This document shows positions 11,481 through 34,306 of a stretch of DNA of 64,000 nt, one piece after another. The DNA is taken from positions 434,001 to 498,000 of the forward strand of contig CAUYUJ010000226.1 in assembly GCA_963575745.1 (NCBI GenBank), read 5' to 3'. The DNA is from Prorocentrum cordatum. Lineage: Eukaryota. Position 1 is the first letter of the stretch, and each line of letters begins with the position of its first letter. The translations under genes were made by a program, and so were the position numbers. The notes under the pieces were generated by a model. The model was given only the letters and a program-made list of their open reading frames with translations. It made no database searches and had not been told where the DNA came from.

Positions 11481-11547
11481 ATGAGCGGCCCAGCCCAGGC
11501 CTCGGCGCGCCCGTTGCGGATCATCGTCCACGGGGGGGCTTGGAGCA
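11481..11547 (+). CDS. ASRGL1: asparaginase exon 1
   Basis: [22 protein letters not shown]. The 3' junction is ambiguous and non-canonical. Confidence 0.8.
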
Positions 11548-14500
11548 TGCCTCGGGGAAGAAATAGCGGCTCACGCATAAGCTGTTGACCTGCCGCTTAT
11601 TCTGTTTATTTGGTGAGTGGGCCACATTTGGCATATTGCGCTGGCGGCGTGCAGCGTAGCGTGCGCATACGTATGCAGCAGCCTGGCATCGCTCGGACGT
11701 GTGCTTGTTTTTCTCGACGACGACCACCGAGGAGCATCCTGCATCATCGAGCAACCAAAAAAACACACGCACGAAACCGAACAGTGCACGGGGAATGGAC
11801 GTCCGAGCGACGGCCAGGCAGTCAGCAGCCTGCGTTAGTTTTCCTCCTATATAGTGGAAGCATGATGGGTTAATGTTTGGGCAGCTTTCTGCCCCACTTC
11901 ACTTCCACTTTCGACGGCCCGAGCGGATGTCTCGGATCTGCGTGGGCCCACCGCCCCTGTAGCGGTGCCTTGGGCGCCGCCCCTGGCGCGCTCCGCGCGC
12001 CAGGTCGGGGGGGTCCCAGCGCTGGTCTACACGCCGGTCGTTGAAAGTCGGTATTTTGGGACTCCCAGGTCCCAATCTTCTTCAAGCGCCTTCCCACTTC
12101 AAGAGTCGATCTGATTATGCTGTGCGTTGGTATTCTCTGGGAGGGCCTGAATCCAATCTACTTTATCCGCCTTCCTACTTCATGTGTTTACCTACTTCTT
12201 CCGACCGGCGCGTAAGAAATCCGCACGGATCTCCGAAAGTTGTATGCTTGTGCAGTTGGTTCTTCCCCCGATCCCGGACGAGCTGAAGGCCCCGAACCTC
12301 GCCGCCTGCAACGCCGCGGCTGACGCTGGTTGGGCAGTGCTGGCGCAGGGCGGCAGTGCCGTCGATGCCGTGGAGGCCGCCGTGCGTTGCCTGGAGGACG
12401 ACCCGTCCTGCGACGCCGGCAGGGGTTCCTGGCTGACTGCCGGCGGCGATGTGGAGTTGGACGCCATGATCATGGACGGGGGTACGCCTCTCCAGGCGGG
12501 CGGGGTGGCCGCCGTGTGCGTGGCGCACCCGGTGAGCCTGGCGCGCAAGGCTCGCGTGTTGCTGGAAGTGCCCCTGGCCCGAGGTGCCCCCCAGGATTCC
12601 CGAGGAGGCCCCCACGGCCTCCAGGGCACCCCTCACGAGGCCCAGCGGGTCCCAGGGGTTCGAGATTTGGGCGGGAAGCTGGGGGCACCTGACGGCAAGG
12701 GGCGCATGTAGCCCCCCCTGAATCAGAGCGTGAACTACCTACCCCGCTTTCGCTTCCAGGCAAAACCCAGTCATACCACGCGCCTCCTCGTCAAGCGGCC
12801 TGACCAGTACATGCCGCAGTTTGGCATCGTTTGGTATCTCTTGAAAGCGAGGGTGGTCCAAAGCGAGGTAGGTTTGTTGTCCCCCCCCTGCAAAGGTGAT
12901 GGAGCAGAGCGAGCACGTGCTTCTGGTCGGCGAGGGGGCCATGGCCTTCCCGGGCGGCGAGAAGCGTGCATGGCCGCTGCCTCTGGGCAGGCCCATCCTG
13001 GTCCCAGGAGCGGTGCATAATGCCCTCCTCCTCATCCTCATCCTCGCGTCCTCCTCCTCCTCTTCGTCTTCGTCCTCCTCCTCCTCCTCCTTCTCCTCCT
13101 CCTCCTCCTCCTCTTCCTCCTCCTCCTCCTTCTCCTCCTCCTGGCTTAGCCCAGGAGGGCGCACGCCTCGCCCATGGGCCCCGGACAGGCCTGGCCACGG
13201 GCGTCGGGGCTCAAGGTACGGGGGTCCATGCCCACGGGGGTCCGTCATAGCGCCGCATCGTGCAGGATCCCAGGGATCCGACGTCGTGATTCTTTCAATA
13301 CAGGGTCCCTGGAAGTCTCGACCCATTCCCCAGCACAGGTTTTTCATCCTGAGTCGTTCTTTGACGGTCCCGAGGCCCGGCGAGGGCCATGCAGGGCCAG
13401 GGGTTCATGGACACAGGCTTGCGCGCAGGACCCCGTGCAGGATCTTGCAGGATCCTGCGGGGCCCGACTGGCCTGGGCCTGCATGGGCCCGGGCCAGCAG
13501 ACCCCCGAGGGCGGCTGCCATGGACACCTCTCGTCGCCCTGCCTTCGGCGACCAGCACGGCGTCCCGCGCGCCACCAGGGAGGAGCTGGTGACGCCGGCG
13601 GCCCTGGAGGAGTGGCGGCGCTACGGGGAGTACGACGGCGCCGTGCGCGGGATCTTCCGGGCCCGGCCGCAGGACCCGGCGGGCCCCGCGCGGCGCGGCC
13701 ACGACACGGTGGGCGCGGTGGCGCTGGACGCGGCGGGGCGCCTCGCCTGCGCGACGAGCACGGGGGGCGTCTCCCTGAAGCTCGCGGGGCGGGTCGGCGA
13801 CAGCCCGATCGTGGGCGCGGGAGGCCCTCCCCAGAGCTGCCAGGAGGGGACGAGACACACAGACACAGTTCATCGTCGATTCCCAGGAAAACATGGGAAA
13901 ATATGGGATGTGGGGGGGAAGACAACAAACAACCCAAGAAGTATATCAACATATAGGGGGACATTTTCTTATTTGTGTGTATTTATTTGTGTGTCCTGGG
14001 GCCCCTTTGAGCTGGGCCTCGCAGGTGGGGTGCGAGCAGAGATGGGGCTGGAGGCTCGCGCCGCGTCGCCGACGTGGCTCCAAGGGGGGGCCAGTGTTGT
14101 TCTCCACGCCGACGTCGCCGAGGCGTCGACGACACATCGTTGGTGCATCGACGACGCGGCACGATCCTTCGGCCCCCACTGCCTACGCTGACCCCATGTG
14201 GGAGGCCTCTGCTACACCGTAGGCGATGCTTAAGAAAACTCAAGTTTTCGGCCAGGGTCTCGATGTTTCTTCACGTTTCAATGTGAATCCTAAGATTTCA
14301 ATGGAAATGTTGGGTTTTTTATCCAAGTTCTGAGACTATGAATTTCTTAACCCATGATTTCTAAAGCATTTCGCAGGGTGTACTCTGACCCCATGTGGGA
14401 GGCCTCTGCTAGAGTGGATTGATTTTCACTCATCGGCTGGTGGGGGACCGAGCCGGAGAAGTCAAGGTAATAGCAGGTACATCCGGGCATAACTTCAGGG

Positions 14501-15508
14501 ACATCCGGACCAGTCTAGGTAGATCGAGGCACATCCACAGACCTCCAGGGACGTCTGGAGCAGGTCGTGGCCTCGCCAGCGCGAGTCGGGCGGCGGCAGC
14601 AGGTGTGTTTTGAGCCCCTTTAGCGAGGCTACTGCGACAACGAGGTGGGCGGCTGCTCCGCCACCGGGCACTCAGGAGGGAAAGAAACACACAGACACAA
14701 GTAATCGTCGATCCCCCGGAAAATCTGCGAAAGTATGGGAAGTGGGGGGAAGACAAAAACCCAGAACATCTGGTAAAATATGGGGAATATCTTTGTTTGT
14801 GTGTATTTATTTGTGTGTGTTCTGGGGCCCCTTTAGGCACGGCGAGGCGATCCTGAAGGTGGCCCTGTGCCGCCACGCCACGTGGCTCCTGGAGGGCGGG
14901 CTCGCCCCCGACGCCGCGGCCGAGGCGGCGCTGGAGCACATGCGGAGGAGCGAGGGCCCAGGGGGCGGAGCGGGGGAACGGCGAGCACGGAGGCGCGTGC
15001 GGGGAGCGAGGGGGGGTCGTCGTCGTCGCCGAACGACGGGAGTGGCAGTGCGCCGTGCTCAGCACAACTGGCGCCCTCATCATCCAGAAGCCCTTATAAT
15101 GAGGACGATCGAGGTCGTTTCAAAGCAGTCCCAGGGGACTGCTTTGAACGCTAGGCAACGTTCAAAGCAGTCCCCTGGGACTGCTTTGAACGATGCGGAT
15201 GTCTGGCCAGAAGAGCGCAGGGAGGAACAGGAGGAGGAGGAGGAGAAGGTGGAGAGGGCTGTTGCAAGGTGCGCCGATGGCTCCTGTCCGTCGCCACGCT
15301 GTACCCAGGGGGGGAAGAGGTGGAGGAGAAGGAGGAGGGGGAGGGGTTCGAGGAAGGATCGGCGAGGTTTTCTCATCAGTTTCGGCCTCTGGAGGCCCAG
15401 CGGGACAACAAAGCCGCAGTTGCGGCGATCCTGAGTAATTCTTTCAAAATCGAAGATTCCCCTCTGCCCCTCTGCCTTCAGGGTTGTTTGCATATGTATA
15501 TATATATG

Positions 15509-15556
<48 letters not shown>

Positions 15557-15662
15557 CATGTATGTATGTATGTATGTATGTATGTATTGTATATATATAT
15601 ATATACATATATATATGTATATTTATACATATAAATATGTGTATATATATAGATTGTTGTTG

Positions 15663-15707
<45 letters not shown>

Positions 15708-18700
15708 TGTACTTGTCGTCTCCGTCGCCGCCGTCGTCGCCGTCCGTCCAGGGCCCCCCCCCGCTTCGAGTAGCGGTCACGGGGGGGCATCCTGGAGGGG
15801 CGCGTTCTGTCTCCCTCCCTGGGTTCTGGGGCGCCCCCCCCCCGCCGCGGGAAGCGGTCACGGGGGGGCGTTTTGGCGGGCGCGTTCTGACCACCTCCCC
15901 TGGGCCCTGGGGCACCCCCCTCCGCCGCGAGGAAGCGGTCACGGGGGGGGCGCCCTGGAAAGGTGAGCTCTCGACCCCTCCCCGATCCTCCTCACCGCAT
16001 TCTCCCTCCCGCCCTCCTCCTCCAGCGCTGTTCGGCTCAAGCAGCGCCGTTCGGCTCAAACCAGCGCCGGCGTCGGCAGTGGCACGGGCTCGCGCCTGCG
16101 CAGGATGGACAGATAATTACACGTATTGGCAAATATGTGCGAAACGGCGGCCCTGGAGGAAGCAGAGAAACATAGGGCCGCAGTTGCGGAGCCTCCATGA
16201 GGCAAAGACGGCGATGGGGCAGCTCGTGGATGGTGGGGCGACCGCGGTGGCGGACGGGGCGGCGAGGATGGCCGCAGTGGTGGATGGCAAGGCGGAGATT
16301 GGCGCAGTGGCGCATGGCAAAGGGATGGATGGGGAAACGGCGACGGAGTTGACCGCAGTCGCGGATGGGAGTGCGGCGGCGGAGGTTGGCAATGCGGAGA
16401 GGAGGGTGGCGGCGGAACTCATGGCGCCAGTGGAAGTTGGGAGGGCCGCGCCAGCGGCGGAGGAGAGGGCGCAGGCAACGCGAGCAGGACCGCTGGAGCG
16501 GATGGGAAGACGGCCGCGGGAGCGGTTGGGAAGGCAGCCGCTGGGGCGGATGGGAAGGCGGCCGCGAAAACCAATGGCAAGGCGCAGTTGCGCACGTCCA
16601 AGGAGAGGGCGCCCCCGCAGGGCGAGCGGCAGACGACGCGAAGGGCAAGGGGAAAACCGCAGTGGCGCATGTCCCAGGTCGAGGAGGTGCCGCAGCTGCG
16701 GACGCAAACCGCCCTGGGGTGTACACGTTGGAGTACTTCCAAACCTACGCTTTGCGCTGACATGGCAACTATAAGCAGCACAACGCGGCCTTGAAGTACT
16801 ACCGCGAAGAGTACGAAAACCCAGCTGACCCCTTCAACAGCCGATTTCCTGTTTTTGACCCCGCAGTTGTGGAGGCGATTTCGCGCATTATCAAGCGCAA
16901 AGGGCGCGGAGGGGCGCAGGACAACAGGGACTGGGAGTGGGGCCGCGCAGAACTGGCCCCGTGGTCTTGGCTGCAGCTGGTCGCGCAGATGGATGCGGCC
17001 GCAATGGAACTCGTCGTGCGCGGCCCTGACAACGACCGCAGTCGCGGATTAGTCAGGTGCGAGATTCGGCCGTGCCCTGGCAGTTACGACCACAATAGGC
17101 ACGCCAAAGGGGTGGACAGAGGAGAAGCGCAGGCAGTCCGCTTGCCCGCGTGGGATTTCGTTCTCACCCGCGACGACGGCTCAGGCATTCGCGTTCACCC
17201 GGAATGGTCCAGTCCGAAGTTCAGCCTGCGCGAGGTTGAGCCTCACTGGGGGCCCGTGCAGCCCCCGGGGGCGGGCCCCGGCAAGAGCGAGGGGCGCGGC
17301 ACGTACGCGTACTACAAGAGATTGCACGCCGTGCCAATATCGGGGCGGTTCGACGCAACCAAAGGAGCTGGGCTACAACCGAGGTGGGAGAGGGCTTGAA
17401 ACCGCAGTTGCGGAAACCGATCACGTGACACCGCGATCCTTTCACTCACTTCGCGCGTCGTCGTCCGCAGTTGCGGTGCCCCCGCTCGCACCCCGCGTGC
17501 GCCCGCCCGCAGTTGCGGCGCCCGCTCGAGTGAACTCCGCAGGCGGTTCGTCCGCGCATCACGCCCTTTGAGTCAGTCAGCAATTATCTGGGCTTGTCCG
17601 CAGCTGCGGCGCGCGGCTTCTCGCGCGAAGAGTCACGTAGAAAAACTCAACGGCTCATCTTGTCTTGCTCTTGTCGTCGCCTAATTAATTGTCTCTTCTG
17701 GATTCCCCTTCGTCAATGTTAGGCCCGTTGGTCCCACTTTGTCGTCTTCTATCTCTCCTCGATTCTCCTTCGTCGCCCCCCTCCTCCTCGTCCTTCCCAG
17801 TCCTGTCCTACCACGCTTGCGATCTTGAGGCCGCCCTCGGTGTCCTCGTTCCCTCCGTCGTTTTCCTCGCTGTCCTCTTCGTAATTGCCAATCCTGGCCT
17901 TCGCGCCCGTCGCCCTCTTCCTCATTCGCCGCAGCCGTGTCCGAGCATCTGTTGGGGGGGCGCGCTTCTCGCGGCGGCATGCCGCAGTTGGAGGCCACGC
18001 ATGAGGAGATGCTGGCGGCGCTGAGGGGCCGCCTGCAAACGCGCTCTGCAAGGGGGGGGAACCGCAGTAGCGAATCCCCCCAGCGAGGCCACACAGCGGA
18101 GGAGGAGCAAGCCGCAGTAGCGGATCCCACCCCGCGGCGCAGCCTAGCCGCAGTAGCGGTTCCCCCGAGCGAGCGCCGCGCGAGGCGACTTCGGCGTCGA
18201 GTTGCAGCAGGGATCGGCGGCGGCCGCCGCCGACGGGCGCAAGTTCCTCCGCGGCGCAGCCGCGCGAGCGGTCTCGGAGTGCCCCGAGGCGCAGGGAGGC
18301 GCAGTTGCGCCGCGCGCACGGAGCTCCCACTGGGATGACCGTGGGGGCTCCTAAGTGGATAGGGGGGTTAAATGTGGATGCCAAGGTGGGTTATATCTGG
18401 CCCAACCTGGCTTATAAGTGGGTTACAAGTGCCCTACGTAGCTTAGGGGGTTAACGATCTGGGCTAGGTGGGCTCCGCCCACTTAGCCGAGTTATCGACC
18501 CCTCCCAAGCTACTTAGGGCCCGTGTAACCCACTTATAAGCCAGGTTGGGCCAGATATAACCCACCTTGGCATCCACTTCTAACCCCCCTATCCACTTAG
18601 GAACCCCCACGGCCATCCCAGCAGAGCGCAGTTGCGCGCGCGGGACCCGACGCCGCCAGTTGCCAATGCTTCCACCAGGACCGCAGTTGCGCGAATACCT

Positions 18701-24700: not shown

Positions 24701-27700
24701 TTTGACGATCATGGACGACGTGAGCCTCGACGGGGTGCCCGACATCACGGACGGCGATAAGGGCGAAGCCGCAGTCGCGGACGGCGATAAGGACGAAGCC
24801 GCAGTCGCGGACGAGCCCCCCGTGGCGCAGGGAAGCGGGGCTGGTTGTTACACCGGCGCATGGAACTTCAAAGGCGCTTGGGTGACCACCATCACGCGCG
24901 AGTGCGCCAACCGCGGCAAGACGATCGAGATGGAGGTGAAGAAACTGACCAAGAACAAATGGGGGACAGCGAGGGATGCAAAGGCGTACGACTACGACTG
25001 GGTCAGAATCACGGACGAGCAAAGGAAGCAGGCGGCCCTGGACTACCTCGACGTCGTCGCCCCGTCTCTCCTGCTCTGAGCTCGAAACCGAACTGGCCGC
25101 AGTTGCGGCGACGCCGCAGTTGCGGGGCTGAACGGGGGCGCGGGCACTGAGGCACTGAACGCCGCAGTTGCGGGGTTGCCTTCCGAGGGCCAGAAGTCGC
25201 TTGTCTTTTCGAGGGGTTGGGGTGTTTCACGAGAACACACCCCCGCGTGCATACTGGGTGCACGCAGACGCAGAGCTTCGTAGAGATGCATACAAACCTT
25301 GTGCGCGAGATGAGTGGGGCTTCCGCGCGAGCGGTGTTCAACAAATGTATGTGTCTTTCCCTGCGCCTTTCCTTTCTCCCCTTGCTTCCTTCCCCCTCCT
25401 GCTAATTAATTACCCTTGCCATTTGTTATCCTTTCCCACCCACTCCCGCCCTTCACTGTCATGCCCGCAGCCGCGTGCCAGGCCCGAGCCGCTCGGCACG
25501 CGGACGCCCATGGACGTCCCGGTGGGCCAAACATGGCACGGCCACGAGGACGGCGAGCACTTCGAGGTGGAGTGGCTCTGTTATGACAGCGGGGCGCCAC
25601 CGAGGAAGACTAAGTACGGCACCACGGGGGTCGCGAACATTCTGAGCCGCACTTGCGGCGGTCATTGCCCCAAAAAGATAAAAGGTGCACGCTTGTGCGG
25701 ATTTTCCGTGCACGGCGAAGTGGTCGTTGTCGCAGTGCGGCGACGTAGAGCCGCCTAGTTTTCACCTGCGGCCAACTACGTGGCGGCCAGGCGCAGCTGG
25801 ACCGCCCGCAGTTGCGGCTCCCGCAGCGGCAGCAGCAATTCCAGCACCAGCAGCAATTCCAGCACCAGCACCAGGAGCACCCGCTGCAGCAGCGCCAGCA
25901 CATGCCCCCGCAGCGGCAGCAGCAGGTCAAGATCCTGCGGCAGCGCCCGCAGTACCACCACTTCCCCCTCCAGCAACAGTGCTCCCTCCAGCAGCTTCTG
26001 CACCCGCCGCGGTTGCGGCTCCCGCAGCACCAGGAGCAGCTGCATCGGACACCGCCGCCCCCGCAGGGCCATCAGCTCCTGGCGATCCTGCGCCGAAGTC
26101 AACCGCGCCCGCAGCAGAAGCACCTCCTCCACTGGCAGAACCCGCAGTTGCGGGTGGAGCTCCTGAAGGGGTGGCAGCTGGCACGCAGGCGCCACTTGCA
26201 GCGCGCATGCCACCAGCGCGACCGCTGGAGGAGAGCTGGTCCAAGGCGCAGGTCGCTTTCTTCCCCTGCCCAGACCCGCGGGCAGCAGCCGCAGTGGGGG
26301 CGCCCACTGCCGCGGCCTTGCGCCCGCGGGTCGCGGCGCCACCCCTGGCACCAGAGACAGTAGTACCCCTGGAAGACGGCCCAGAGATGGAGGCCGCAGT
26401 GGCGGCGAGGGTGCCTGACAGAGTTATGGCGCTCATGAGGGAAATCCTGTCGGAGGGTTCCTACATAGGACACGCGGCATTCGTGCCATTTACCTTGCGG
26501 TTCGGGCGTCGACCGTACATGTGGGAAGGCGAAAACCGCAAGGACATCCTTGCCTTCTATGCGCCCTGGGCCTTGGCGACGTGCACTGAGCCATGCGCCG
26601 TCGACGGCGTGGCGTGCGCACTTCACAGGGGATCCCGCAAGACCGCGGAGGCTTGGGCGTGGGGGGCGCAGGACCTGTGGCCAGTAACTCCTGAGCACCC
26701 TCTCCACGAGGTGCGCCACTGGGTGGCCGCAGTTGCGGTGGGTGCGCCGTGCACGGAGGGGGTGGGCCCGTTGAATGAGTTTTACGGGCCTCTAGGCCAG
26801 TGGATCGCTGGTACCATTTGCGATGGAAACTGCGGCGTGGACCTGATGGCCATGATGTTGCAGAAGCCGCTCAATGCCGAGACGCGCAGGTGGCTGCGGG
26901 AAGAACTCTACGAGTTCGGAGTAGCCCGCTGGGGCGTGCCACGGTTGCACGACGTGCTCGCAGTGACGCAGGAACTCGACCTCGAGGCTGTGAACGCGCA
27001 CCGCAGTTGCGGGGGCAGTGGCCCTCCCAGGCCCATCGTCCTGGACGGCGCCGGGGGCGAGGGCAAGCCAACAGAAGCGCTCGGGGGGCCAGGCGCGCCA
27101 AGCCCCCTCCTCATGGAAGCGTTGATATGGCAAACGGGTGTGAAGGGCGACGGGGCGCTGTTGGCCATGGCTGCGTCCATGGCAGAGGCGTCGCAGGAGG
27201 AACAGATCAGGGCGCGCGCACTGGCCCGCGCGCGCCCGAAGCCCGCAGCTGAGCCTGATAAGCGCAAGATATGCCCGCGCACGCTCCGAGACAGGCAGTT
27301 GGTGTGCCAGGCGTTGGAGAAGCACGCCCGCAGTCGCGGTTGGTTGGGCGTTGGCCCTCTGCCACGTAGTTCGCTTGTGTCGTTTTGCGGGCGGTTCGCG
27401 TGGCCGAAGGGCTGGGGGTTGGCCCGCCAGAGGAAGACGGTTGCGCAGTGGTTCTACAGGGGGCGCCAAAAGATGCAAGGACCGCAGTGGGCGCAATTGG
27501 CCAGCGCCGCGGCCGCGGCACGCAAGGCGCGCCGACAAAGGCTCCATGGTTGGAGGCCGCTCTATACGAATGGTGGTCCCACATGAGGTATTCGGTGGAC
27601 TGGAAGCGGCGGCGAAGCGAACCGCAGTCAGGGAAGAGAAGCCCAAAATGCTCGCCAGGTTCTCCCAATCCTTGCTGCTCACCAAGGCGAAGCAACTCGT

Positions 27701-30700
27701 CGCGGAGTACTGCGCGGAGGCCGCGAAGCGGGGGATCAAGCCGAAAGTGCCGCAGTTGCGGGCGCGGTGGTGGACCAAGTGGCGGCGCTCTTACGGACTG
27801 AGCATGAGGAAGCCGAATCGCAAATACAAGATCCCCAAGTGGTTGCTCCAATCGCGCTTCGAGACAATGATCCTGAACGTAGCGCGGGTCCGCGCAGCCG
27901 CGGAGGAGCTTTCGGGGTGCGACCCGCACATCCTGAACTGGGACCAGTCGCCTTTTCACCACAACGAGTCCTCCTCAGCCTCGAAGCCGACCTTGGCTGC
28001 GAAGGGGGGCATTGTTCCGCTCGTGGAGGCGCGCGACGACAGCAAGAGTCGGTGGGCCGCCAGCCTGACGGTGTCCAGCGACGTGGAGGACATCCGCAGT
28101 TGCGGACCTCCGCCCGCGGAGCTGATGTTCAAGGGGGGGGCTGTCGTCGCCGAGGACTTGGCCGCTCGTGCCCGCAGTAGCGGCTTCCCGCAATGGGTGA
28201 GCACGGCGACGTCTGAGAAGGGGTCCTACCGCACAGACGACGTCATATCGTTCCTGCGGCGGCACTTGCGGGCATGGCCCGACGACCCGCAGTTGCGGGG
28301 GAAGTGGAGAACCCTCATGGCCGATGACCACGGCCCGCACAAAGCGGACGCTGTGCGGAGACTCAGCTGGCAGCGCGGCTACGCGTTGATCATTCATGGC
28401 GGAGGGACGACCGCAGTTGCGCAGCCTGTGGACACGGACTTGAACCAGCACGTGAAACGCTTGTACATTGCCCTCGAAACCAAAGCGCTGGTGCAGCAGA
28501 TGGCGTTAGGGAAACACGTGCCGCAGTTGCGGCGTGCCGAGTGCGCGGACTTGATGGTTTCTGTGCTCAGCAATCTGCAGTTGCACGTGAACGCTGCGCA
28601 GGGTTTTCGGAAAGTCGGCATGCGGGCGCCTTTTGACAAGTCTGGCGGTCTGGAGATTTGCCGAGAGGCGGCGCGGCTCTTGGAAGCAGGGGGCCTCCGA
28701 GCGAAAGTGGATGCCGCAGTCGCGGAGGTCAGGGAGGAATGCCGGAAGGGGCGCCTCAAGTGGTCATACAATGACGCGCACCGGCTCATGCACCAGTACG
28801 AGACGCATAAAGCCTCAGATGCCGTGTTGAACGTGCTCGGAGAGGAAGTGCTTGGCCTGGGGCCAGGCCACGAGGAGAGCGACGAGGAGGCGAGGAGGCC
28901 GAGGGAGAGGAGGAGGGCGACGAGGAGGGCGACGAGGCCGACTGGGAGGAGGCTATGGCGGAGCATGGCTGGGGCGATGATGGGTCTCGGGAAAAGCAGG
29001 CACCTATGGGCTGCGTGGTGGTGGGCGCCCATGCGGCCGAGCAGGTGGAAGTGGCGACGTCTCTGGCAGACACGCTTCGCGAGGTGGAAGGTATGCTGCG
29101 CAACGTGGGCATGGAGAAAGTGGCACAACAATGCCGCGCAGAACAACACGAGCAGAAGAAGCGGCTGCGAGAGCTGGCACGGGAGGACGACGACCTCCTA
29201 CGAGCGTTGATTGCCCAGCGAGACCACGACGCCGCAGTTGCGGCGAAACAGAGGCGCCTGGCAACAGAAGCGAACGACAGGACGAAGGCCCTCCACGACA
29301 TCAAGAAACAGATTCGGGAGGCCGAAGTTGTTCTGAGGGAGAAGAAGGAGGCCGCAGTTGCGGTGGAGGCGGCCCTGGCTAACAAGCACGCCCTGGCCCA
29401 GTGGAACCCAGAGGAGTTTAAGGTCAAGAAAAACAGGATGGCTGCTTTGGACCGCTTGGCTCGCGGAAAGGGCGTCCTCTCGGATGAACAGAGGGGGGGG
29501 GGGGGGGAGGGGGCGGTTGGTTCAAAACGAACTGGGGCGAACATGTACAAGGAGCATAAAGAGCAATGGCCGTTGACGTTTGCTGGGTGGCTGCAGCGAG
29601 TCGCCAGCGACGCGGCGTCTGGGAATCGCCCGGCGCTGTTGCAGTTCGTGCACTCGGAGACTGCGAGGACCCTGGGCGGGCAAATGGCTCTGGTGATTCC
29701 CGCCGTAGCCCCTACAAGCCGCAGTTGCGGACCTGGGGGAAAACCATCAGGAGTCAAAATGAATGCGAAAACCGCAGTTGCGGACTCTCGACAGGTCGCG
29801 TCGCTGCGCGCCCTGCGGACGGGTGGCCCCAAGTGCGTTTCAATGTGTGTGGTGATGCGACAAAATTGTTTCCTCGCCCTCCCTCTGCCACTCCCCCGCT
29901 CCCCTTGTCTCCTCGTGCCATCCGACTCCAACGTGTCCTTCTCTCCTCCCATCTCCTGCCATCTAATCCCATCATCCTTCTGGGCGCGTCGGTAGCCACC
30001 GAGGCTCGACGCGGCGCCCGCGCAGCCGCCCGCGGCGACCATGTGGGCGCCTGCGCGTCCGGGATTGGCGTTGCAGGCGGTGCCGCGCGGAGCTCGCTTC
30101 GCTAACGCTGTGCACATCCACGCGGAGGAAAGCGAAGCCGCAGTTGCGGCAGCTGACGAGGAAACCGCAGTTGCGGAAGATGGCGACGACCAAAGGACGC
30201 AAGATGGCGACAGTACCGTCGCGTCCTCGGCTGCCTCCGCTGACGAGGCGGAGCCACAAGGAGATTCGGAGGCCGCAGTTGCGGCAACCAAGGAGCCCCA
30301 CGTGCCGAAAGTGCCGTCGAAGAGGCGGACCTGGAGGCGGGTGCATGTCATCGAGACGAGTCGTGGGTCTGAGAAGGAGAGATCGGTTTACGAGGCTTGG
30401 CAGAAGAAAACGCAAGGCGAAGCGGGGCGCATCGGCTTCTACGCGGCCAACTTCGGACAGAGCGCAGGGAAGCCCGCGCGACGCAGAGACGAGTTCGCGC
30501 AGATCCACGCCAATCCTGCTCAAATTATCGCCCTTTGCGAGTGCGACGACGACTGCTGCAGGGCAATCTCTGGGGGGGGCGACGCGCGCGAGAGCACAAC
30601 CGCAGTTGCGGGCGAGAAGTTCATGAATCGCCCCCGATACAACTACTTGTGCGTCAAGGGCGGGGAGCCTTCGGGGGCCCTCCTCATCGGCCTCAGAGAC

Positions 30701-33700
30701 CGCAGCGGCGGCCAAATTGATCGCGTGGACTTTGCGAGGCTTTTCCACAAGAAGGAGAAGTCGAAGCCGAAGAAGAAGAAATCCGCAGTAGCGGAGGTGG
30801 CTGCGCCAAAATGGCACAACACGTACTCGAGGGCGATGGTTGCGCGTGCCACCCTGGGCGAAGCGTTGCCCCATTTGGGGAAATCCTTCCGCGTCATGGC
30901 GGCGCACGTCCACCGCAATTTGGCCAACCAAGACTGGGGCCCGCAGAAACTCCAGGAATTCTACGAGTGGTTCGCCGAGTACGTCGCGAAGTGGAACGTC
31001 GAAGTCTGCATGGGGGACCTCAACATGTGCATGGTCCAGCTCGTGTCCTGGTGCCGCAGTCGCGGAGTCACGGTGGACGTCGCTGCGTAGACCCCCTGGA
31101 AGACAGCAGGCGGCCAGCCCAGGGCAGACGGTATGGCAACTCTGTTCATCAGTTGCCCTGGGAGATGCGAGCTTCGGCATGGCCTGGGCGCTCTGCACGA
31201 CGGCCCTGGCGGGTTCTTAACAAACTCCCCTGGCGCCTCTTTCCACACCTTCGATTACACGAATGGCCCTGGGAAGATGCTGCAGACTTACTTGCCGAAG
31301 GCTGGGGCCGTCGCAGACAAGCTTCGCGACTTCGCGATGCCATCTAACGCCTCCGAGGCCGCAGTTGCGGATTTCGAACAAACAATGGCGCGCCGTGCAC
31401 GGGGCGAGTGGGTGCCCAACCCCTTCCGAGTCAGGCAGGGCAAGCTGGGCGACGCGATCTGGAACGGCTCCGTCGGCAAGGCGCGAAACGGAGCGCACTT
31501 CCTCATGGTGGCTTTCACCCGCAACACGGGCCGCAGATCACCAGAGAAGCTTGCTGAGAGGAATGACAAGGAAAAGAAGCGGAAGCAAGAGAAAGGCGCT
31601 TGCAAGGGCGGCCAGAAGGGCAGCAACAACGGAGGCGACTCAGACACCGCAATTGCGGGAAAGGGCGGTGAGCCGCCGCTGGCATCTCACCGCCCGGTTT
31701 GGGGGTTTGAGCCTCTAGGTCGTGTTCCGACCCCCTCTTATGCCGCAGTTGCGGTTGGGCCCTCTGGCGCCAGCGGAAGCGGCACGTGGAGGGCGGAGGA
31801 TCCCGCGAGGGAGTGGAGGGCGGGATGGCGCGCTGATGAGTGGTCGAGCTGGGCAGGATGGCGCGCTGATGAGCAGAAGTGGTGGGATGATAATCGCGCC
31901 GCAGTTGCGGACAGTGCCACGGAGGGTTCGCCTCCTAATCGCATGTGGGCGGGCATGCCCGACCAGGCGCAGAACGCGGGCCACGCGGGGCCGTGGAACG
32001 ACCGCGCTCCCTGGACCTACGAAACGACACGTTGGTAATGGCCGCAATTGCGGGCAAGTGCAGCAGAAGGTTTGCGGCCGCAGTTGCGGGCAAGTGCAGC
32101 AGAAGGTTTGTGGCCACAGTTGCGGACAGCGCTTCGTCGAGACAAGTTGGCAACTCATCATCGACGTCATCGCCATCTTCCTCATCGATCGACATCACCA
32201 TCATCATCCTGCAGCTGCTGCCCCTCATGTCGCCTTGCGAGGTAAGCGTTCAAAGCAGTCCCGGGGGACTGCTTTGAAGACTGCCTTGTAGCGTTCAAAG
32301 CAGTCCCAGGGGACTGCTTTGAAACGACCTCTCGTCCTCATTTTAAAGGCTTCTGGATTATCGGGGGTGGGCAGAACCCCCAACAGTGACACGTCGCTTA
32401 GTGAATTGTCCGTTTTCGGTTCTCGAGAGGGCGCCGTGGCCGTCATTTTCCAGGCTTGCAACCGCCAGGTTTGGGCCTCAGGTCGTTTGCACTAAACCAC
32501 GTTTTACTAAAGGGGCGTCTGTCCATCCCCGATTATACCTGCTGGGTACATGATGCAGCAGCAGACAGGTAGGAGAGACAAAGTCACAAGAGCACGAAAT
32601 CAAGGAAGAAGAGCCCCGCGAACGAGGGGGGAGCGAGGAGGGAGCCGAGAGGGCAGAAAGCAGGAGGGCGGCGGGGGCGGAGGAGCGGGGCCCGCTGCCC
32701 GAGCCGGAGGGAGGGGGCGGGAGCAGCGGGGCGCCGGGGCTGCACAAACGCGAGGCGCGGAGCTCCGAGGGGGGGGGAGGCCACCCCACTAAGAGGAGGA
32801 GGAGGAGGAGGAGGAGGAGGAGGAGGAGGAGGAGGAGGAGGAGGAGGAGGAGGAGGAGGAGGAGGAGGATGAGGAGGATGAGGAGGACCCCCTCCCCCTC
32901 CTAGTTGTCGTGGCGGCGGTGGAAGAAAACGGGCCCACCACGAGGCGGGCCGCCACGAGGCGGAGGGAAGGGAACTCCGCAGTACGTCGCTGCCCTCCCT
33001 CCGCCGTCCCCCTCTCGGGGCCTCCTGGCCCTCGGCGCCACCGCTGGAGCCGCCTCGCAAAAGTCTGGTCGGAGCGCCCCCCGGAGCTGGCTGTCGTTGC
33101 CTGCAGCTGTGTCTGGTTTACCAGATCTCAACCTGCCTCAGGCGCCTTCCTGCCTCGAGAACCGGTGTGCTCTCGCTGCGTTTTGGGATTCCCTTGCAGG
33201 GCCTGAACCCCATCTGCCTTGTCCGCCTTCCTGCTTCGTGTCTTTGCCTACAGTGAGCGGCTTGAGTAAGGAACACTTACTTTTCAAAAGGGGCTCGGTC
33301 GTTCCTTAGGCTTGCATGCGCTAGTTGCAGTTCCTCATGCGTTATTTTTTCTTATTTATCGTTCCTTATGCGTTATTCCTTGGGATACAAAAAAAACGAG
33401 GTTTCGTTCCTTAGTTATCGTTCCTTTGGTCAGGCCGATGACTGTACTTCTTCCGACCGGCGCGTGGCGGCGACGGTGCTTCCGAGTCTTCCCCCAGGAA
33501 GTGCGGCGGCGGCCCCGGCGGGGGCGCGACCGGAGGGCTCATTATCGGCGGCTGCAGCGGGTGCGGCCACGCCGTGGGCGTGGCTTGCGATCCCCGTCGG
33601 GTGGTCACCGCTCGGGGCGATCGAAGTGGGTACGGAAAGACTTCCCAGGCGGGGAAATATACATGACCACCGCCTGGAGGATCGATTTCTCGGAGGCCTC

Positions 33701-34306
33701 GACAGGCGGTGGATATGGACACATTCGGGCCCCCGGGGGCCAACATAGATCCATATCCACCGCCCGCTGGGGCACCAGGACGTCGGCACTCAGGCGGTGG
33801 ATGTGGACAAGCCCCCGCCTCGCAAGAATGGGTACAAAAACCGATCACAGCTCCTGTTCGTCTTGAACAGGACTCGCTGTCGGCGTCGCCGCGGACCTGT
33901 GTCCATTTGAGACAGGCCGCCTCCCCAACAGCGGCCGCTGCTGGTTCGGGGCAACGTTCGTTGTTGGGCATTGTGCCCATTGTTTCCGTACTTATTTCGG
34001 GCGTCCAACAAGATTTGTTCAGCCCCCATCGGGGCGCGGCAGGCATCTTGGTCGATGTCATCGCACGCGACCTTTAGGGTGAGGGTCGCAAACCACACTG
34101 CTTGCAAGCCACACCCTGCGGAGTCGCCGATCATCATGCTTGCGAGGGACGGCCGCTTCGGGAAGGCTTTCACGAGCGAGCGCATGGTGTGGGCCTCCAG
34201 GGAGGGCGACGCCGAGGCATCGCCGCGGTGGTCTGGTCACTCGGGGGGGCCGCGGGAGAATAACGATGATGAGCCTCTCACATTTGGACCCAGGGGAGAA
34301 ATATAG
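11481..34306 (+). CDS. ASRGL1: isoaspartyl peptidase / L-asparaginase (ASRGL1/IaaA-like, Ntn hydrolase), 8 exons, whole-gene span
   Basis: Family motifs appear in order: [117 protein letters not shown]. Exons ~11481-11547, 12272-12549, 12896-12949, 13547-13823, 14628-14667, 14837-14947, 33498-33544, 34137-34306. Confidence 0.9.
11552..12271. mobile_element. TIR-bounded insertion forming intron 1
   Basis: tcggggaagaa ... ttcttcccccga, flanked by tgcc/tccc. Confidence 0.55.
11689..11810. mobile_element. MITE family D
   Basis: tcgctcggacgt ... acgtccgagcga. Copies at ~44148-44265 and ~51045-51162. Confidence 0.7.
12272..12549 (+). CDS. ASRGL1: asparaginase exon 2
   Basis: [21 protein letters not shown]...[10 protein letters not shown]...HPVSLARK, ending AAG|GC (GC donor). 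Confidence 0.9.
12896..12949 (+). CDS. ASRGL1: asparaginase exon 3
   Basis: aaag|GTG acceptor; [18 protein letters not shown]. Confidence 0.88.
12950..13540. mobile_element. TIR-bounded insertion forming intron 3
   Basis: gccttc direct repeat at 12944-12949 and 13541-13546. Imperfect ~37 bp inverted ends (cgggcggcgagaagcgtgcatgg / ccatggacacctctcgtcgccct). Confidence 0.7.
13547..13823 (+). CDS. ASRGL1: asparaginase exon 4 (autocleavage site and catalytic Thr)
   Basis: GDQHGVP...[24 protein letters not shown]...[12 protein letters not shown]. Thr codon at 13706-13708. Ends AG|GC. Confidence 0.92.
14215..14380. mobile_element. TA-flanked MITE in intron 4
   Basis: caccgtaggcgatgctt ... aagcatttcgcagggtg. 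Inverted copy at ~49400-49548. Confidence 0.7.
14628..14667 (+). CDS. ASRGL1: asparaginase exon 5
   Basis: gag|GC TAC...; (G)[12 protein letters not shown](G); GC donor at 14668. Confidence 0.88.
14668..14836 (+). mobile_element. introner-like intron 5
   Basis: Nearly the whole 169 bp GC-AG intron is a repeat also found at ~13840-14010. GGCAC direct repeat at both junctions. Confidence 0.65.
14837..14947 (+). CDS. ASRGL1: asparaginase exon 6
   Basis: ttag|[37 protein letters not shown](R); AG|GA donor at 14948. Confidence 0.88.
15080..15192 (+). repeat. left terminal inverted repeat, with two TTCAAAGCAGTCCC-NN-GGGACTGCTTTGAA palindromes
   Basis: tcatccagaagcccttataatgaggacgatcgaggtcgtttcaaagcagtccc... 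matches the reverse complement of 32247-32360, with a few mismatches and indels. Confidence 0.92.
15493..15704. repeat. (TA)n/(TATG)n microsatellite
   Basis: Direct reading. Confidence 0.95.
15772..15960. repeat. three ~80 bp subterminal tandem units (agcggtcacggggggg core)
   Basis: Core at ~15772, 15852 and 15933. Confidence 0.75.
16105..17399 (+). pseudogene. cargo gene A, hypothetical protein
   Basis: Low-complexity N-terminus, then a globular-looking frame [30 protein letters not shown]...[11 protein letters not shown]...SYDHNRH...[17 protein letters not shown]. In-frame TGA at 16758; start uncertain. Confidence 0.65.
17937..20140 (+). pseudogene. cargo gene B, probable degenerate EEP-fold protein
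   Basis: ORFs 18632-19855 and 19922-20140 share a frame across TGA 19853. The 5' part is interrupted by a foldback [13 protein letters not shown] and [10 protein letters not shown] parallel gene F. Confidence 0.55.
18330..18621. mobile_element. 292 bp foldback (near-perfect hairpin) MITE
   Basis: ctgggatgaccgtggggg...ttataagtgggttac / gtaacccacttataa...cccccacggccatcccag, flanked by CA on both sides. Confidence 0.88.
20907..23444 (+). pseudogene. cargo gene C: tentative ParB/Srx-like N-terminal domain, helical middle, SET-like C-terminal motif
   Basis: Frames 20907-21464 and 21474-~22250 join across TAG 21462, with frameshifts near 22250 and 23010. Motifs [19 protein letters not shown] and [19 protein letters not shown]. 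Domain names are pattern-based inference. Confidence 0.55.
23851..23888. promoter_or_regulatory. internal copy of the TIR palindrome (18 bp arms, AG spacer)
   Basis: aacgttcaaagcagtccc-ag-gggactgctttgaacgtt, intergenic between cargo genes C and D. Confidence 0.85.
24095..25079 (+). pseudogene. cargo gene D, hypothetical protein
   Basis: [21 protein letters not shown]... TAG 24323 ...DDPMMAL, then a frameshift to ...[13 protein letters not shown]...WNFKGAWV...[14 protein letters not shown]. Confidence 0.6.
25509..27586 (+). pseudogene. cargo gene E, N-terminal part: Pro/Ala linker plus OTU-like cysteine peptidase domain
   Basis: [17 protein letters not shown] (Cys codon 26831). Runs by frameshift into the transposase frame. 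Confidence 0.6.
27351..29730 (+). pseudogene. pogo-type DDE_1 transposase (DD35D) with C-terminal coiled coil; frameshifted
   Basis: CENP-B-HTH-like [17 protein letters not shown], then ILNWDQSP (D 27942), [21 protein letters not shown] (D 28323) and [19 protein letters not shown] (D 28431). There are 35 residues between the last two Asp. The tail continues in frame 28955-. Confidence 0.85.
30041..32038 (+). pseudogene. cargo gene F, endonuclease/exonuclease/phosphatase (EEP) fold protein
   Basis: FYAANFG, IIALCE, MAAHVH, VCMGDLN and GAH occur in canonical EEP order. Disrupted by TAG at 31088 and a frameshift into 31133-32038. Trp/Gly-rich tail. Confidence 0.7.
32247..32360 (-). repeat. right terminal inverted repeat
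   Basis: ...gggactgctttgaaacgacctctcgtcctcattttaaaggcttctggatta. Palindromes at 32249-32278 and 32294-32323. Confidence 0.92.
32361..32532. mobile_element. MITE family B inserted at the right terminus of the giant element
   Basis: Homologous to 1238-1409; tta direct repeat on both sides. Confidence 0.8.
33498..33544 (+). CDS. ASRGL1: asparaginase exon 7
   Basis: cccccag|G; (R)[15 protein letters not shown]. The phase fits exon 6. Confidence 0.75.
33545..34130. mobile_element. TIR-bounded insertion forming intron 7
   Basis: Flanks tcatta/tcatca. Imperfect ~50 bp inverted ends tcggcggctgc...ggcttgcgatccc / gggtcgcaaacc...gagtcgccga. Confidence 0.7.
34137..34306 (+). CDS. ASRGL1: asparaginase exon 8
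   Basis: [24 protein letters not shown]..., TAG at 34304-34306. The extreme C-terminus is uncertain. Confidence 0.82.

What the first reader, a model, noticed from the sequence alone, without database searches (positions are those of the whole stretch)
11548..34136. Three host introns are TIR-bounded insertions lacking an AG acceptor at the predicted junction
Seen: introns 1 (11552-12271), 3 (12950-13540) and 7 (33545-34130) have diverged inverted ends and 4-6 bp direct repeats. Precise removal restores family-consistent text (HGGAWSIPD, GAMAFGDQ, GGLIML), but no AG lies at those junctions. Introns 2, 4, 5 and 6 are ordinary GC-AG or GA-AG. The exons show no stops even though the insertions look old. 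Known: introners occur in dinoflagellates, and non-canonical inverted-repeat introns occur in Amoebophrya and euglenids. Inference: structure-guided non-canonical splicing may coexist with spliceosomal introns in one gene. Alternatives are shifted splice sites or a dead gene copy.
Basis: partly seen in the sequence, partly recalled or inferred. Interest (0 to 1): 0.75.

Follow-up and report, generated by a model that had tools for sequence, protein, structure and literature searches.

The report
Hairpin introns lacking usual splice signals
In a dinoflagellate gene for an asparaginase-type enzyme, three of the seven introns look like old transposon insertions with paired ends and no normal splice signals, yet transcripts cut out at least two of them exactly, a kind of splicing so far described in parasitic relatives and in Euglena.

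Summary
The window carries an 8-exon isoaspartyl peptidase/L-asparaginase gene (PF01112), 11481-34306 on the + strand. Introns 2, 4, 5 and 6 are GC-AG or GA-AG. Introns 1 (724 nt), 3 (597 nt) and 7 (592 nt) have 26-30 nt imperfect terminal inverted repeats and junction direct repeats. The exact repeats are 2, 6 and 2 nt. None of their 13 possible cut registers gives G[T/C/A]..AG.

Contigs from three public runs hold the joints 11546>12271 and 12943>13541. One run is poly-A RNA on record; two behave like transcriptomes. Two raw RNA reads also show the intron 1 joint. The exon pieces listed for two of the runs have no mismatches. The nearby AG sites are not used. Intron 7 is supported only by gap-free alignment to homologues.

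Best reading (0.7): these are transposon-derived, hairpin-ended non-canonical introns of the Amoebophrya introner type, removed from RNA, in a free-living core dinoflagellate. The mechanism is not shown. Canonical introns 4 and 5 also fold into terminal helices, so "structure-guided" remains inference. The main rival is an identical insertion-free gene copy as the mRNA source. No genomic reads were available to test it.

The scan noted one similar odd-ended intron elsewhere in this genome (e1-7627401).

The parts
11481..34306 (+). Isoaspartyl peptidase/L-asparaginase gene (Asparaginase_2), 8 exons, 347 codons
   Evidence: Exon 2 matches PF01112 positions 18-106 (E 3.7e-24) and exon 4 positions 124-216 (E 2.1e-22). 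The spliced ORF is 64% identical to P0002 and 61% to P0003. tblastn mapped the exons.
11549..12272 (+). Intron 1, 724 nt, non-canonical. The register can shift 2 nt left; possible ends are AT..CG, TG..GA, GC..AT. Its interior is a composite of repeats.
   Evidence: RNA joint 11546>12271 (both=2) in 1 contig each of X1, X5 and X19, plus 2 raw reads of X23. Registers. Interior pieces are 67-77% like 44143-44283, 51040-51514 and 33028-33251, with a 21-nt stretch (12193-12213) identical to 33445-33465.
11554..11579 (+). Intron 1, 5' inverted-repeat arm (pairs with 12243-12268)
   Evidence: 26 nt, 77% complementary. In the full-length MFE: 25 terminal pairs, mean probability 0.79.
12243..12268 (+). 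Intron 1, 3' inverted-repeat arm
   Evidence: Read by eye, this end resembles the 3' end of intron 6 (...TCTTCCCCC), which there carries a normal AG acceptor (the MAFFT alignment did not place these ends together).
12550..12895 (+). Intron 2, 346 nt, GC-AG, junction repeat AAGG, no terminal helix
   Evidence: RNA joint 12546>12893 (both=4) in X1, X5 and X19.
12950..13546 (+). Intron 3, 597 nt, non-canonical. The register can shift up to 6 nt left (12944-13540). It holds a (TCC)n microsatellite.
   Evidence: RNA joint 12943>13541 (both=6) in X1 and X5 (side 51) and X19 (side 19). All 7 registers lack G[TCA]..AG.
12944..12949 (+). Intron 3 direct repeat GCCTTC, copy 1 (copy 2 is at 13541-13546); looks like a target-site duplication
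   Evidence: Exact 6 of 6; equals the 'both=6' of the RNA joint.
12952..12981 (+). Intron 3, 5' inverted-repeat arm (pairs with 13510-13539)
   Evidence: 30 nt, 80%. Duplex -61.2 kcal/mol, 0 of 300 shuffles as good. 31 terminal pairs, mean probability 0.91.
13510..13539 (+). Intron 3, 3' inverted-repeat arm
13824..14627 (+). Intron 4, 804 nt, GC-AG, junction repeat GAGGC. Its first ~185 nt are a copy of the intron 5 element; a further nested insertion sits at 14215-14380.
   Evidence: RNA joint 13820>14625 (both=5) in 3 runs. 13841-14008 is 79% like 14673-14834.
14668..14836 (+). Intron 5, 169 nt, GC-AG, junction repeat GGCAC; a canonical introner-type element with inverted ends
   Evidence: RNA joint 14666>14836 (both=5) in 3 runs. 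43 terminal pairs in the MFE, mean probability 0.75.
14948..33497 (+). Intron 6, 18,550 nt, GA-AG, junction repeat AGGA. It is filled with a large element that carries long ORFs and a 45-copy strand-specific motif.
   Evidence: Contig pieces of X1, X5 and X19 leave the genome at 14949. The junction fits MRRKC in homologues. The acceptor was not seen in RNA.
33546..34137 (+). Intron 7, 592 nt, inferred non-canonical. The register can shift 2 nt left; possible ends are AT..TC, TC..CA, CG..AT.
   Evidence: Homology only: GGLI|MLARDG aligns gap-free with 6 of 6 homologues. X5 record 15 runs 241 nt past exon 6, which fits E7+E8 but would also fit a retained intron.
33541..33567 (+). Intron 7, 5' inverted-repeat arm (pairs with 34108-34134)
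   Evidence: 27 nt, 74%. Duplex -49.2 kcal/mol, 0 of 300 shuffles as good. 46 terminal pairs, mean probability 0.47.
34108..34134 (+). Intron 7, 3' inverted-repeat arm

Best explanation
Introns 1, 3 and 7 are descendants of non-autonomous DNA-transposon (MITE-like) insertions into coding sequence. Each has terminal inverted repeats and a remnant target-site duplication. They are removed from the pre-mRNA as 'element plus one repeat copy', although they have no G[T/C/A]..AG ends. This makes them non-canonical introner-type introns of the kind described in Amoebophrya. Here they sit in a free-living, GC-rich core dinoflagellate, side by side with ordinary GC-AG and GA-AG introns that are themselves introner-derived.

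Shown: the anatomy of all three, exact removal of I1 and I3 in transcripts, and the absence of AG.

Inferred: that removal happens on RNA of this very locus, that I7 behaves like I1 and I3, and that the terminal helix brings the two junctions together so that cutting and joining happen in the few unpaired nucleotides at its base. The enzyme is unknown. It could be a spliceosome with relaxed end recognition or a separate machinery as proposed for Euglena. I lean slightly towards a tolerant spliceosome helped by the helix.
For: RNA joints for I1 and I3 appear in three contig runs, and for I1 also in raw reads.

Record arithmetic shows seamless joins. In X1 record 2, E2 occupies positions 165-440 and E4 positions 492-771; the 51 letters between equal E3. 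In X5 record 15 (1183 nt), E1 with 88 nt of 5'UTR, E2, E4 and E6 are listed with 0 other letters, and the gaps between them (51 and 42 letters) equal E3 and E5.

X23 reads over the exons have the first mate on the - strand, which fits a + strand RNA.

The I1-unique bin 11554-11680 has depth 0.05 / 0 / 0.85 in X1 / X5 / X19, against 21.9 / 14.9 / 5.67 in the exon 1 bin. The intron is therefore almost absent from RNA.

An unspliced I4/E5 contig (X1 record 5, 14404-14654, 0 mismatches) shows that a copy with this locus's intron 4 sequence is transcribed.

Terminal inverted repeats and helices. Junction repeats at all 7 introns. I4 and I5 belong to one element family.

The repeat remnants of I1 (4 of 6) and I7 (6 of 7) are degenerate while the exons match the mRNA at 0 mismatches. 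That is hard to fit with a dead copy.

Precedent: Amoebophrya non-canonical introns with 8-20 nt inverted repeats and 3-5 nt direct repeats over the junctions (PMC7789003, passages read).
Against: No genomic reads of the organism were served. An identical insertion-free copy or allele as the mRNA source is therefore not excluded.

No read or contig was shown that bridges an exon/I1 or exon/I3 boundary unspliced, so transcription of the insertion-bearing copy is not directly shown. The output lists only part of the pieces; 787 are not shown.

I7 was not tested on RNA.

The helix is not specific to the odd introns: canonical I4 (35 pairs) and I5 (43 pairs) also close their ends.

The offsets between helix base and cut differ among the three introns (5'+3' sums of 6, 9 and 8 nt, my reading). 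A fixed-geometry RNA enzyme would not give that. Removal of 'element plus one repeat' is also what DNA-level repeat-mediated deletion gives.

I3's repeat is perfect, so I3 could be young.

X1 and X5 are not on record as RNA.
Confidence: 0.7

Rival explanations
1. This copy is a dead or silent gene hit by three MITE insertions in its exons. The mRNA comes from an identical insertion-free paralogue or allele elsewhere in the very large, duplicate-rich genome.
For: Precise removal of 'element plus one repeat copy' is exactly what comparison with an uninterrupted copy would show. No DNA run was available. The I1-unique bin 11554-11680 has almost no RNA depth; for I3, the microsatellite part was skipped by the repeat filter and the other bins are covered only by mismatched repeat copies, so I3 says little either way. 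This fits a silent copy as well as efficient splicing. The I3 repeat is perfect, so that insertion could be recent.
Against: The exon pieces listed for X5 record 15 (1183 nt), including 88 nt of 5'UTR, show 0 mismatches. Yet two of the three repeat pairs are degenerate (4 of 6, 6 of 7) and the inverted repeats are 74-80%. A copy old enough for that decay should differ from its paralogue. The expressed copy shares I2, I4 and I5 with this locus. X19, which has 2 mismatches in the E1 piece and 1 in the E4 piece and so may be another strain, shows the same joints. Another odd-ended, exactly joined intron was noted in this genome (e1-7627401, not checked here).
Confidence: 0.15
2. The insertions are removed at the DNA level in some or all transcribing nuclei. 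This would be precise excision or repeat-mediated deletion favoured by the hairpin, as with bacterial transposon precise excision or ciliate IES removal.
For: Deletion between short direct repeats flanking an inverted repeat removes 'element plus one repeat' whatever the repeat length. That matches the differing offsets of the three introns.
Against: No such process is known in dinoflagellates (my knowledge; not searched). Only 2 nt of exact repeat remain at I1 and I7, which is poor substrate for repeat-mediated deletion. The assembly holds the insertions.
Confidence: 0.05
3. The joints are artefacts: reverse-transcriptase template switching between the direct repeats across a stable hairpin, or an assembly artefact of the contigs.
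For: Short direct repeats with non-canonical ends across a strong hairpin are the classic signature of template switching (recalled from the literature, not read here).
Against: The joined form is the only form seen. The I1-unique bin has 0-0.85 depth against 5.7-21.9 in exon 1, whereas artefacts are usually a minority. The same joints appear in three runs of different studies, and for I1 in raw reads. The product is an intact, family-consistent ORF.
Confidence: 0.03
4. Intron 7 alone is an ordinary intron with shifted sites, for example donor GC at 33568 and acceptor AG at 34122-23. This would add about 13 residues to the protein.
For: A phase-0 GC donor and the AG at 34122-23 exist in frame (my reading).
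Against: 6 of 6 homologues have no insertion there, and GGLI|MLARDG aligns gap-free. I7 has the same inverted-repeat and direct-repeat anatomy as the two RNA-verified introns.
Confidence: 0.1

Closest known systems
Non-canonical introns / introner elements of Amoebophrya A25 and A120 (Farhat et al. 2021, PMC7789003; passages read)
   Same: RNA-supported introns without GT-AG or any consensus dinucleotides. Complementary 5' and 3' ends form a hairpin that joins the exon borders. Short direct repeats overlap the junctions. They have a MITE-like look and coexist with canonical introns.
   Different: The host here is a free-living, GC-rich core dinoflagellate with huge TE-filled introns, not a compact parasite genome. 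The inverted repeats are longer and imperfect (26-30 nt at 74-80%, against 8-20 nt). The exact direct repeats are 2, 6 and 2 nt, against 3-5. The introns are 592-724 nt. Family membership of the elements and the U1 snRNA status of the host could not be tested.
Introner-like elements of Symbiodinium and Polarella (Roy et al., bioRxiv 10.1101/2020.10.14.339549; parts 1-2 of 4 read)
   Same: DNA-transposon-derived introns with terminal inverted repeats and 3-8 nt target-site duplications. Introns 2, 4, 5 and 6 of this gene fit that picture (junction repeats AAGG, GAGGC, GGCAC, AGGA), and I4 and I5 share one element family.
   Different: All classes described there recruit a GH 5' site and an AG 3' site from the element or the duplication. 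Introns 1, 3 and 7 have neither in any register.
Nonconventional introns of euglenids (review PMC11282704, passages; Nomura et al. 2025, PMC12501133, abstract and introduction)
   Same: [quoted passage not shown]
   Different: The genetically defined Euglena signature 5'-N3CDG...CH'GN5-6|R is not met by I1 or I3. I7 is only near it (N3-CGG...CCG-N8|G, my reading of the sequence). The helices here are far longer than the 3-nt CAG/CTG pairing. The lineages are unrelated.
Identically repeated intron boundary (IRIB) of dinoflagellate introns (Mendez et al. 2015, PMC5032977; passages)
   Same: 2-9 nt repeated at both intron borders and kept once in the mRNA. All 7 introns here show this (2-6 nt).
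   Different: [quoted passage not shown] The repeats AT, GCCTTC and AT here allow none.
'Introner elements' counted in the Prorocentrum cordatum genome paper (Dougan et al. 2023, PMC10666404; passages and supplementary note)
   Same: Introns with 8-20 nt inverted repeats and 3-5 nt direct repeats within 30 nt of each end, found in 2.4% of annotated introns of a 59.7% G+C free-living dinoflagellate.
   Different: Their introns came from gene models built with mappers changed to accept GC and GA donors. In the passages read, no intron without an AG acceptor is reported.

Membership tests
Amoebophrya-type introner elements (non-canonical introns with IR + DR) | Intron supported by RNA whose ends are not GT-AG (here also not GC-AG or GA-AG) | tested here: met
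   I1 and I3: joints in X1, X5 and X19, and for I1 in X23. None of the 10 registers is canonical. I7: sequence and homology only.
Amoebophrya-type introner elements (non-canonical introns with IR + DR) | Inverted repeat between the 5' and 3' ends of the same intron (8-20 nt in the paper), able to form a hairpin | tested here: met
   26, 30 and 27 nt arms at 77, 80 and 74%. The duplex beats the shuffles in 295, 300 and 300 of 300. The helix is present in the full-length MFE.
Amoebophrya-type introner elements (non-canonical introns with IR + DR) | Direct repeat of 3-5 nt overlapping the exon/intron boundaries | tested here: inconclusive
   Exact repeats are 2 (I1), 6 (I3) and 2 (I7) nt. Extended they are 4 of 6 and 6 of 7.
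Amoebophrya-type introner elements (non-canonical introns with IR + DR) | Repeated families of such introns across the genome | not testable with these tools
   No whole genome is held. In the window, I7 has no other copy, I3 has only weak pieces, and the I1 interior has relatives.
Dinoflagellate introner-like elements (Roy et al.) | TIR plus target-site duplication flanking the intron | tested here: met
Dinoflagellate introner-like elements (Roy et al.) | 5' GH and 3' AG splice sites recruited from the element or the duplication | tested here: not met
   Not met by I1, I3 or I7 in any of 13 registers. Met by I2, I4, I5 and I6.
Euglenid nonconventional introns | Signature 5'-N3CDG ... CH'GN5-6|R(exon) (PMC12501133 abstract) | tested here: not met
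   Read off the sequence. I1: CGG sits at +5 to +7 at best, and CCG abuts the exon. I3: a register with CGG at +4 exists, but it has no CCG partner and the exon then starts with T. I7: N3-CGG...CCG-N8|G, so the spacer is 8, not 5-6.
Euglenid nonconventional introns | Excised as circular, non-lariat RNA after the conventional introns | not testable with these tools
   Needs RNase R treatment or outward-primer RT-PCR.
U12-type AT-AC introns | 5' RTATCCTY consensus and AT-AC (or GT-AG) ends | tested here: not met
   The registers starting with AT read ATGCCTCG (I1) and ATCGGCGG (I7), and end in CG and TC. The consensus is as quoted in PMC5032977.
Asparaginase_2 (PF01112) isoaspartyl peptidase/L-asparaginase | Match to the Pfam profile above the gathering score, with contiguous profile coverage across exons | tested here: met
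   E2: 85.9 bits, profile 18-106. E4: 80.1 bits, profile 124-216. Cut-off is 27. The 17 profile positions between them fit the 18-residue E3. The conserved [10 protein letters not shown] stretch holding the family's Thr nucleophile is present (the role of that Thr is recalled).

The most novel reading that the evidence does not exclude
Free-living core dinoflagellates have a second route of intron removal that does not need AG. It takes hairpin-ended transposon insertions out of coding exons exactly, working alongside the GC/GA-AG spliceosomal route within single transcripts. If so, the trait is not a peculiarity of the parasite Amoebophrya with its missing U1. It is either old in dinoflagellates or arises easily. 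Exonic MITE insertions would be tolerated and become introns without ever acquiring splice sites. Current dinoflagellate gene models, built with G[TCA]-AG priors, would systematically miss or mis-cut such introns.
Probability: 0.55. Interest if true: 0.75.

Novelty: new member of a known kind. Interest (0 to 1): 0.6.

Why it matters
How transposon insertions become introns is an open question. In the known dinoflagellate introners the element or its target duplication supplies GH and AG. Here two RNA-verified introns have neither.

If removal is at the RNA level, it gives a tractable case: one small, conserved enzyme gene with three odd and four ordinary introns. It can be used to ask what defines the cut sites, whether the hairpin is needed, and whether the spliceosome does the work. 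The organism can be grown in axenic culture.

It also bears on annotation. Pipelines for dinoflagellate genomes accept only GT/GC/GA-AG (PMC10666404 methods passage). They would break or mis-translate genes such as this one.

Tried and rejected
- Whole-genome search for other copies of the three elements or of the gene: no genome is held.
- Same-species proteins from transcripts: the exon 4 search among longer proteins gave at best 67% identity, so no junction evidence came from there.
- Two exact-pattern scans of metagenome contigs, with exon 4 and exon 8 stretches, aimed at cDNA or insertion-free DNA and the I7 joint: 0 hits each.
- Other genes in the window that could show more such introns: Pfam found nothing real in 150 ORFs (one sub-threshold mucin-like match). 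These 150 came from 194 ORFs of at least 70 aa lying outside 11300-34400 and passing an entropy filter, out of 562 ORFs in the whole window; 44 were not scanned.
- Pfam on 11 long ORFs inside intron 6: 0 families. No autonomous partner transposon was identified.
- Rfam: 0 matches at gathering score in the whole window. Only a chance-level miRNA-like match at E 0.58 in 11500-15000. My guess that the highly expressed repeat in intron 2 is 5S-derived got no support.
- Shifted canonical sites for I1 and I3: rejected by the RNA joints.
- U12-type and the Euglena splicing code: not met (see the membership rows).
- RT template switching: rejected on depth.
- A common cut geometry relative to the helix, or a common dinucleotide pair across the three introns: none exists.
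- Earlier notes of the scan, by sequence and by place near this window: nothing.
- Literature: four searches found no report of AG-less IR/DR introns in a core dinoflagellate. The Current Biology version of Roy et al. and the supplementary tables of PMC10666404 were not seen and may bear on this.
Full report
**What is there**

The window is GC-rich; most 2-kb bins are 0.55-0.68 G+C. Earlier notes of this scan call the genome dinoflagellate. One unchecked note names Prorocentrum cordatum. The published 59.7% G+C of that species is compatible (PMC10666404 passage). I did not test the name.

Between 11481 and 34306 on the + strand lies one gene of the Asparaginase_2 family. Exon 2 matches PF01112 positions 18-106 and exon 4 positions 124-216, both far above the cut-off. 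The best relatives in the protein collection are 67% and 62% identical to exon 4 (P0002, P0003).

tblastn with four homologues, together with reading the sequence, gave eight exons. Joined by coordinates in a script, they form a 347-codon ORF with only its terminal stop. It is 64% identical to P0002 and 61% to P0003. All seven junctions align without a gap to the homologues that cover them: 6 of 6, and 5 for intron 1.

**The introns**

- Introns 2, 4 and 5 are GC-AG and intron 6 is GA-AG.
- Every intron has a short repeat across its two borders: AT, AAGG, GCCTTC, GAGGC, GGCAC, AGGA, AT. This is the 'identically repeated intron boundary' known from dinoflagellates (PMC5032977 passages). It is expected if introns arise from transposons with target-site duplications (Roy et al. 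preprint).
- For introns 2, 4, 5 and 6 one register inside the repeat is G[C/A]..AG.
- For introns 1, 3 and 7 none of the 3+7+3 registers is.
- The nearest upstream AGs are 17, 37 and 14 nt from the 3' junction: 12254-55, 13508-09 and 34122-23.

**Inverted ends**

The three odd introns carry imperfect terminal inverted repeats that start 0-8 nt from the junctions:
- I1: 26 nt, 77%
- I3: 30 nt, 80%
- I7: 27 nt, 74%

I computed duplex energies between the first and last 45 nt plus 8 nt of exon:
- I1: -36.2 kcal/mol, 5 of 300 shuffles as good
- I3: -61.2, 0 of 300
- I7: -49.2, 0 of 300
- I2, I4 and I6 are weaker than their shuffles, and I5 is intermediate (14 of 300).

Against 1000 random pairs of genomic stretches, I3 is beyond the 1st percentile and I7 lies between the 1st and 5th. 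I1 is unremarkable by energy; what makes it notable is that the pairing sits at the ends.

In full-length folds the terminal helix is in the minimum-energy structure for I1 (25 pairs), I3 (31) and I7 (46). It is also there for canonical I4 (35) and I5 (43), but not for I2. I4 and I5 share one element family at 79% identity. The helix therefore marks transposon origin in five of the six introns folded. It does not by itself separate the odd from the ordinary ones.

**RNA**

The run search found 20 runs that hold 0.16-0.28 of the sampled words of 11450-15000. No run holds half or more, so no genomic run was served. The exons make up about 0.23 of that stretch.

I laid four runs on 11300-15100: X1, X5, X19 (poly-A RNA on record) and X23 (raw RNA reads).

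| Joint | Intron | Ambiguity ('both') | Seen in |
|---|---|---|---|
| 11546>12271 | I1 | 2 | One contig each in X1, X5, X19; 2 reads of X23 with different starts |
| 12943>13541 | I3 | 6 | X1, X5, X19 (side only 19 in X19) |
| 12546>12893 | I2 | 4 | X1, X5, X19 |
| 13820>14625 | I4 | 5 | X1, X5, X19 |
| 14666>14836 | I5 | 5 | X1, X5, X19 |

Record positions show that nothing lies between the joined parts. In X1 record 2, E2 is at 165-440 and E4 at 492-771, leaving 51 letters, which is E3. In X5 record 15 (1183 nt), E1 with 88 nt of 5'UTR, E2, E4 and E6 are listed with 0 other letters, and the gaps of 51 and 42 letters equal E3 and E5.

All three contig runs leave the genome at 14949, the intron 6 donor. 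X23 reads on the exons have the first mate on the - strand, as expected for a + strand RNA in most stranded libraries.

The I1-unique bin 11554-11680 has depth 0.05 / 0 / 0.85 in X1 / X5 / X19, against 21.9 / 14.9 / 5.67 in the exon 1 bin. For I3 the microsatellite part was skipped by the tool's repeat filter, and other bins are covered by mismatched copies of repeats. Its zero bins therefore say less.

One X1 contig (14404-14654, 0 mismatches) runs unspliced from intron 4 into exon 5.

**What this settles**

Transcripts do not use the nearby AG sites, the gene is expressed, and the joined form is exactly the one that homology predicts. Non-canonical and GC-AG junctions occur in the same contig.

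**What stays open**

1. Intron 7 lay outside the stretch laid, because the tool takes 20 kb at most in one call and the gene spans 22.8 kb. The 241 nt of X5 record 15 beyond exon 6 fit E7+E8, but would also fit a retained intron. A canonical alternative (GC at 33568, AG at 34122-23) would insert about 13 residues where 6 of 6 homologues have none.
2. Without genomic reads I cannot exclude that the mRNA comes from an identical copy without the insertions. I rate this at 0.15. The exons and UTR match at 0 mismatches, while the repeat remnants of I1 and I7 and all three inverted repeats have decayed, which a young insertion would not show. A run with a few exon mismatches (X19) has the same joints.
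3. The mechanism is unknown. No dinucleotide pair is common to the three introns. The offsets between helix base and cut sum to 6, 9 and 8 nt. What is removed is always 'element plus one repeat copy'. That is what selection would keep under any mechanism, but it is also what DNA-level deletion between repeats gives (0.05).
4. Template switching by reverse transcriptase has the same signature. It is unlikely as the only source of the joined form (0.03), given the near absence of I1 from RNA and the intact conserved ORF.

**Comparison with what is known**

- The closest description is the non-canonical introns / introner elements of Amoebophrya A25 and A120. These have 8-20 nt inverted repeats, 3-5 nt direct repeats over the borders, no consensus ends and RNA-seq support (PMC7789003 passages).
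- The introner-like elements of Symbiodinium and Polarella all recruit GH and AG. Introns 2, 4, 5 and 6 fit them; introns 1, 3 and 7 do not.
- Euglenid nonconventional introns work alike in outline (review PMC11282704). Their defined code, N3CDG...CH'GN5-6|R (PMC12501133 abstract), is not met by I1 and I3 and only approached by I7.
- The genome paper of P. cordatum counted inverted-repeat/direct-repeat 'introner elements' in 2.4% of annotated introns. Its gene models came from tools set to GT/GC/GA donors, and I saw no AG-less intron reported in the passages read.
- A 2024 review lists boundaries other than GT/GC/GA-AG only for Amoebophrya (PMC11453091 passage).
- Four full-text searches found no report of such introns in a core dinoflagellate.
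- The scan itself noted one similar case in this genome (e1-7627401). I did not check it.

**Verdict**

It is a new member of a known kind (Amoebophrya-type introner introns) in a new and experimentally more accessible host. Interest 0.6.

Noticed in passing
window 15415-32088 (+), inside intron 6: The 10-mer CGCAGTTGCG, mostly as CCGCAGTTGCGG, occurs 45 times, all on the + strand, against 0.12 expected from shuffles. It lies in all three frames of long open ORFs, read as PQLR, AAVA or RSCG. These ORFs (up to 688 aa) have no Pfam family. It may be the same phenomenon as the hairpin array noted earlier in this genome (e1-7630127), but that was not compared.
   Followed up: partly
window 12723-12873, inside intron 2: A ~150-nt stretch has RNA contig depth of about 10,000 in X1 (435-544 in X5 and X19), against about 11 for the exons. 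It has sharp loose ends at 12723 and 12873 and 4-10 mismatches per listed piece, so it is a copy of a very highly expressed repeat or small RNA encoded elsewhere. There is no Rfam match.
   Followed up: partly
window 11962-12012, inside intron 1: A short GC-rich palindrome (10-bp arms 11982-11991/11995-12004, perfect, 3-nt loop) is the core of another very abundant RNA repeat. Depth is about 10,000 in X1, and loose ends appear on both sides in all four runs.
   Followed up: no
window 14184-14411, inside intron 4: A 166-nt insertion (14215-14380) has a 148-nt part that is 85% like 49401-49548 on the other strand. It is flanked by an unusually long 31-nt direct repeat (14184-14214 / 14381-14411, 97%).
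   Followed up: no
window 13841-14008 and 14673-14834: Canonical introns 4 and 5 hold copies of one introner-type element (79% identical) with an ACACACAGACAC / GTGTGTG inverted repeat. Intron 5 is essentially just this element (169 nt).
   Followed up: partly
window 33028-33497 and 11967-12272: The 3' part of intron 6 is homologous to the 3' part of intron 1. Both end in ...TCTTCCCCC (my reading; MAFFT did not align the ends). In intron 6 this is followed by AG|G, a normal acceptor. In intron 1 it is followed by G|AT. One repeat family thus sits at a canonical and at a non-canonical 3' junction.
   Followed up: partly
window 14404-14654: In run X1 only, an unspliced contig across the intron 4/exon 5 border has about the same depth (10.1) as the spliced mRNA contig (11.1). 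This suggests strong retention of intron 4 in that sample.
   Followed up: no
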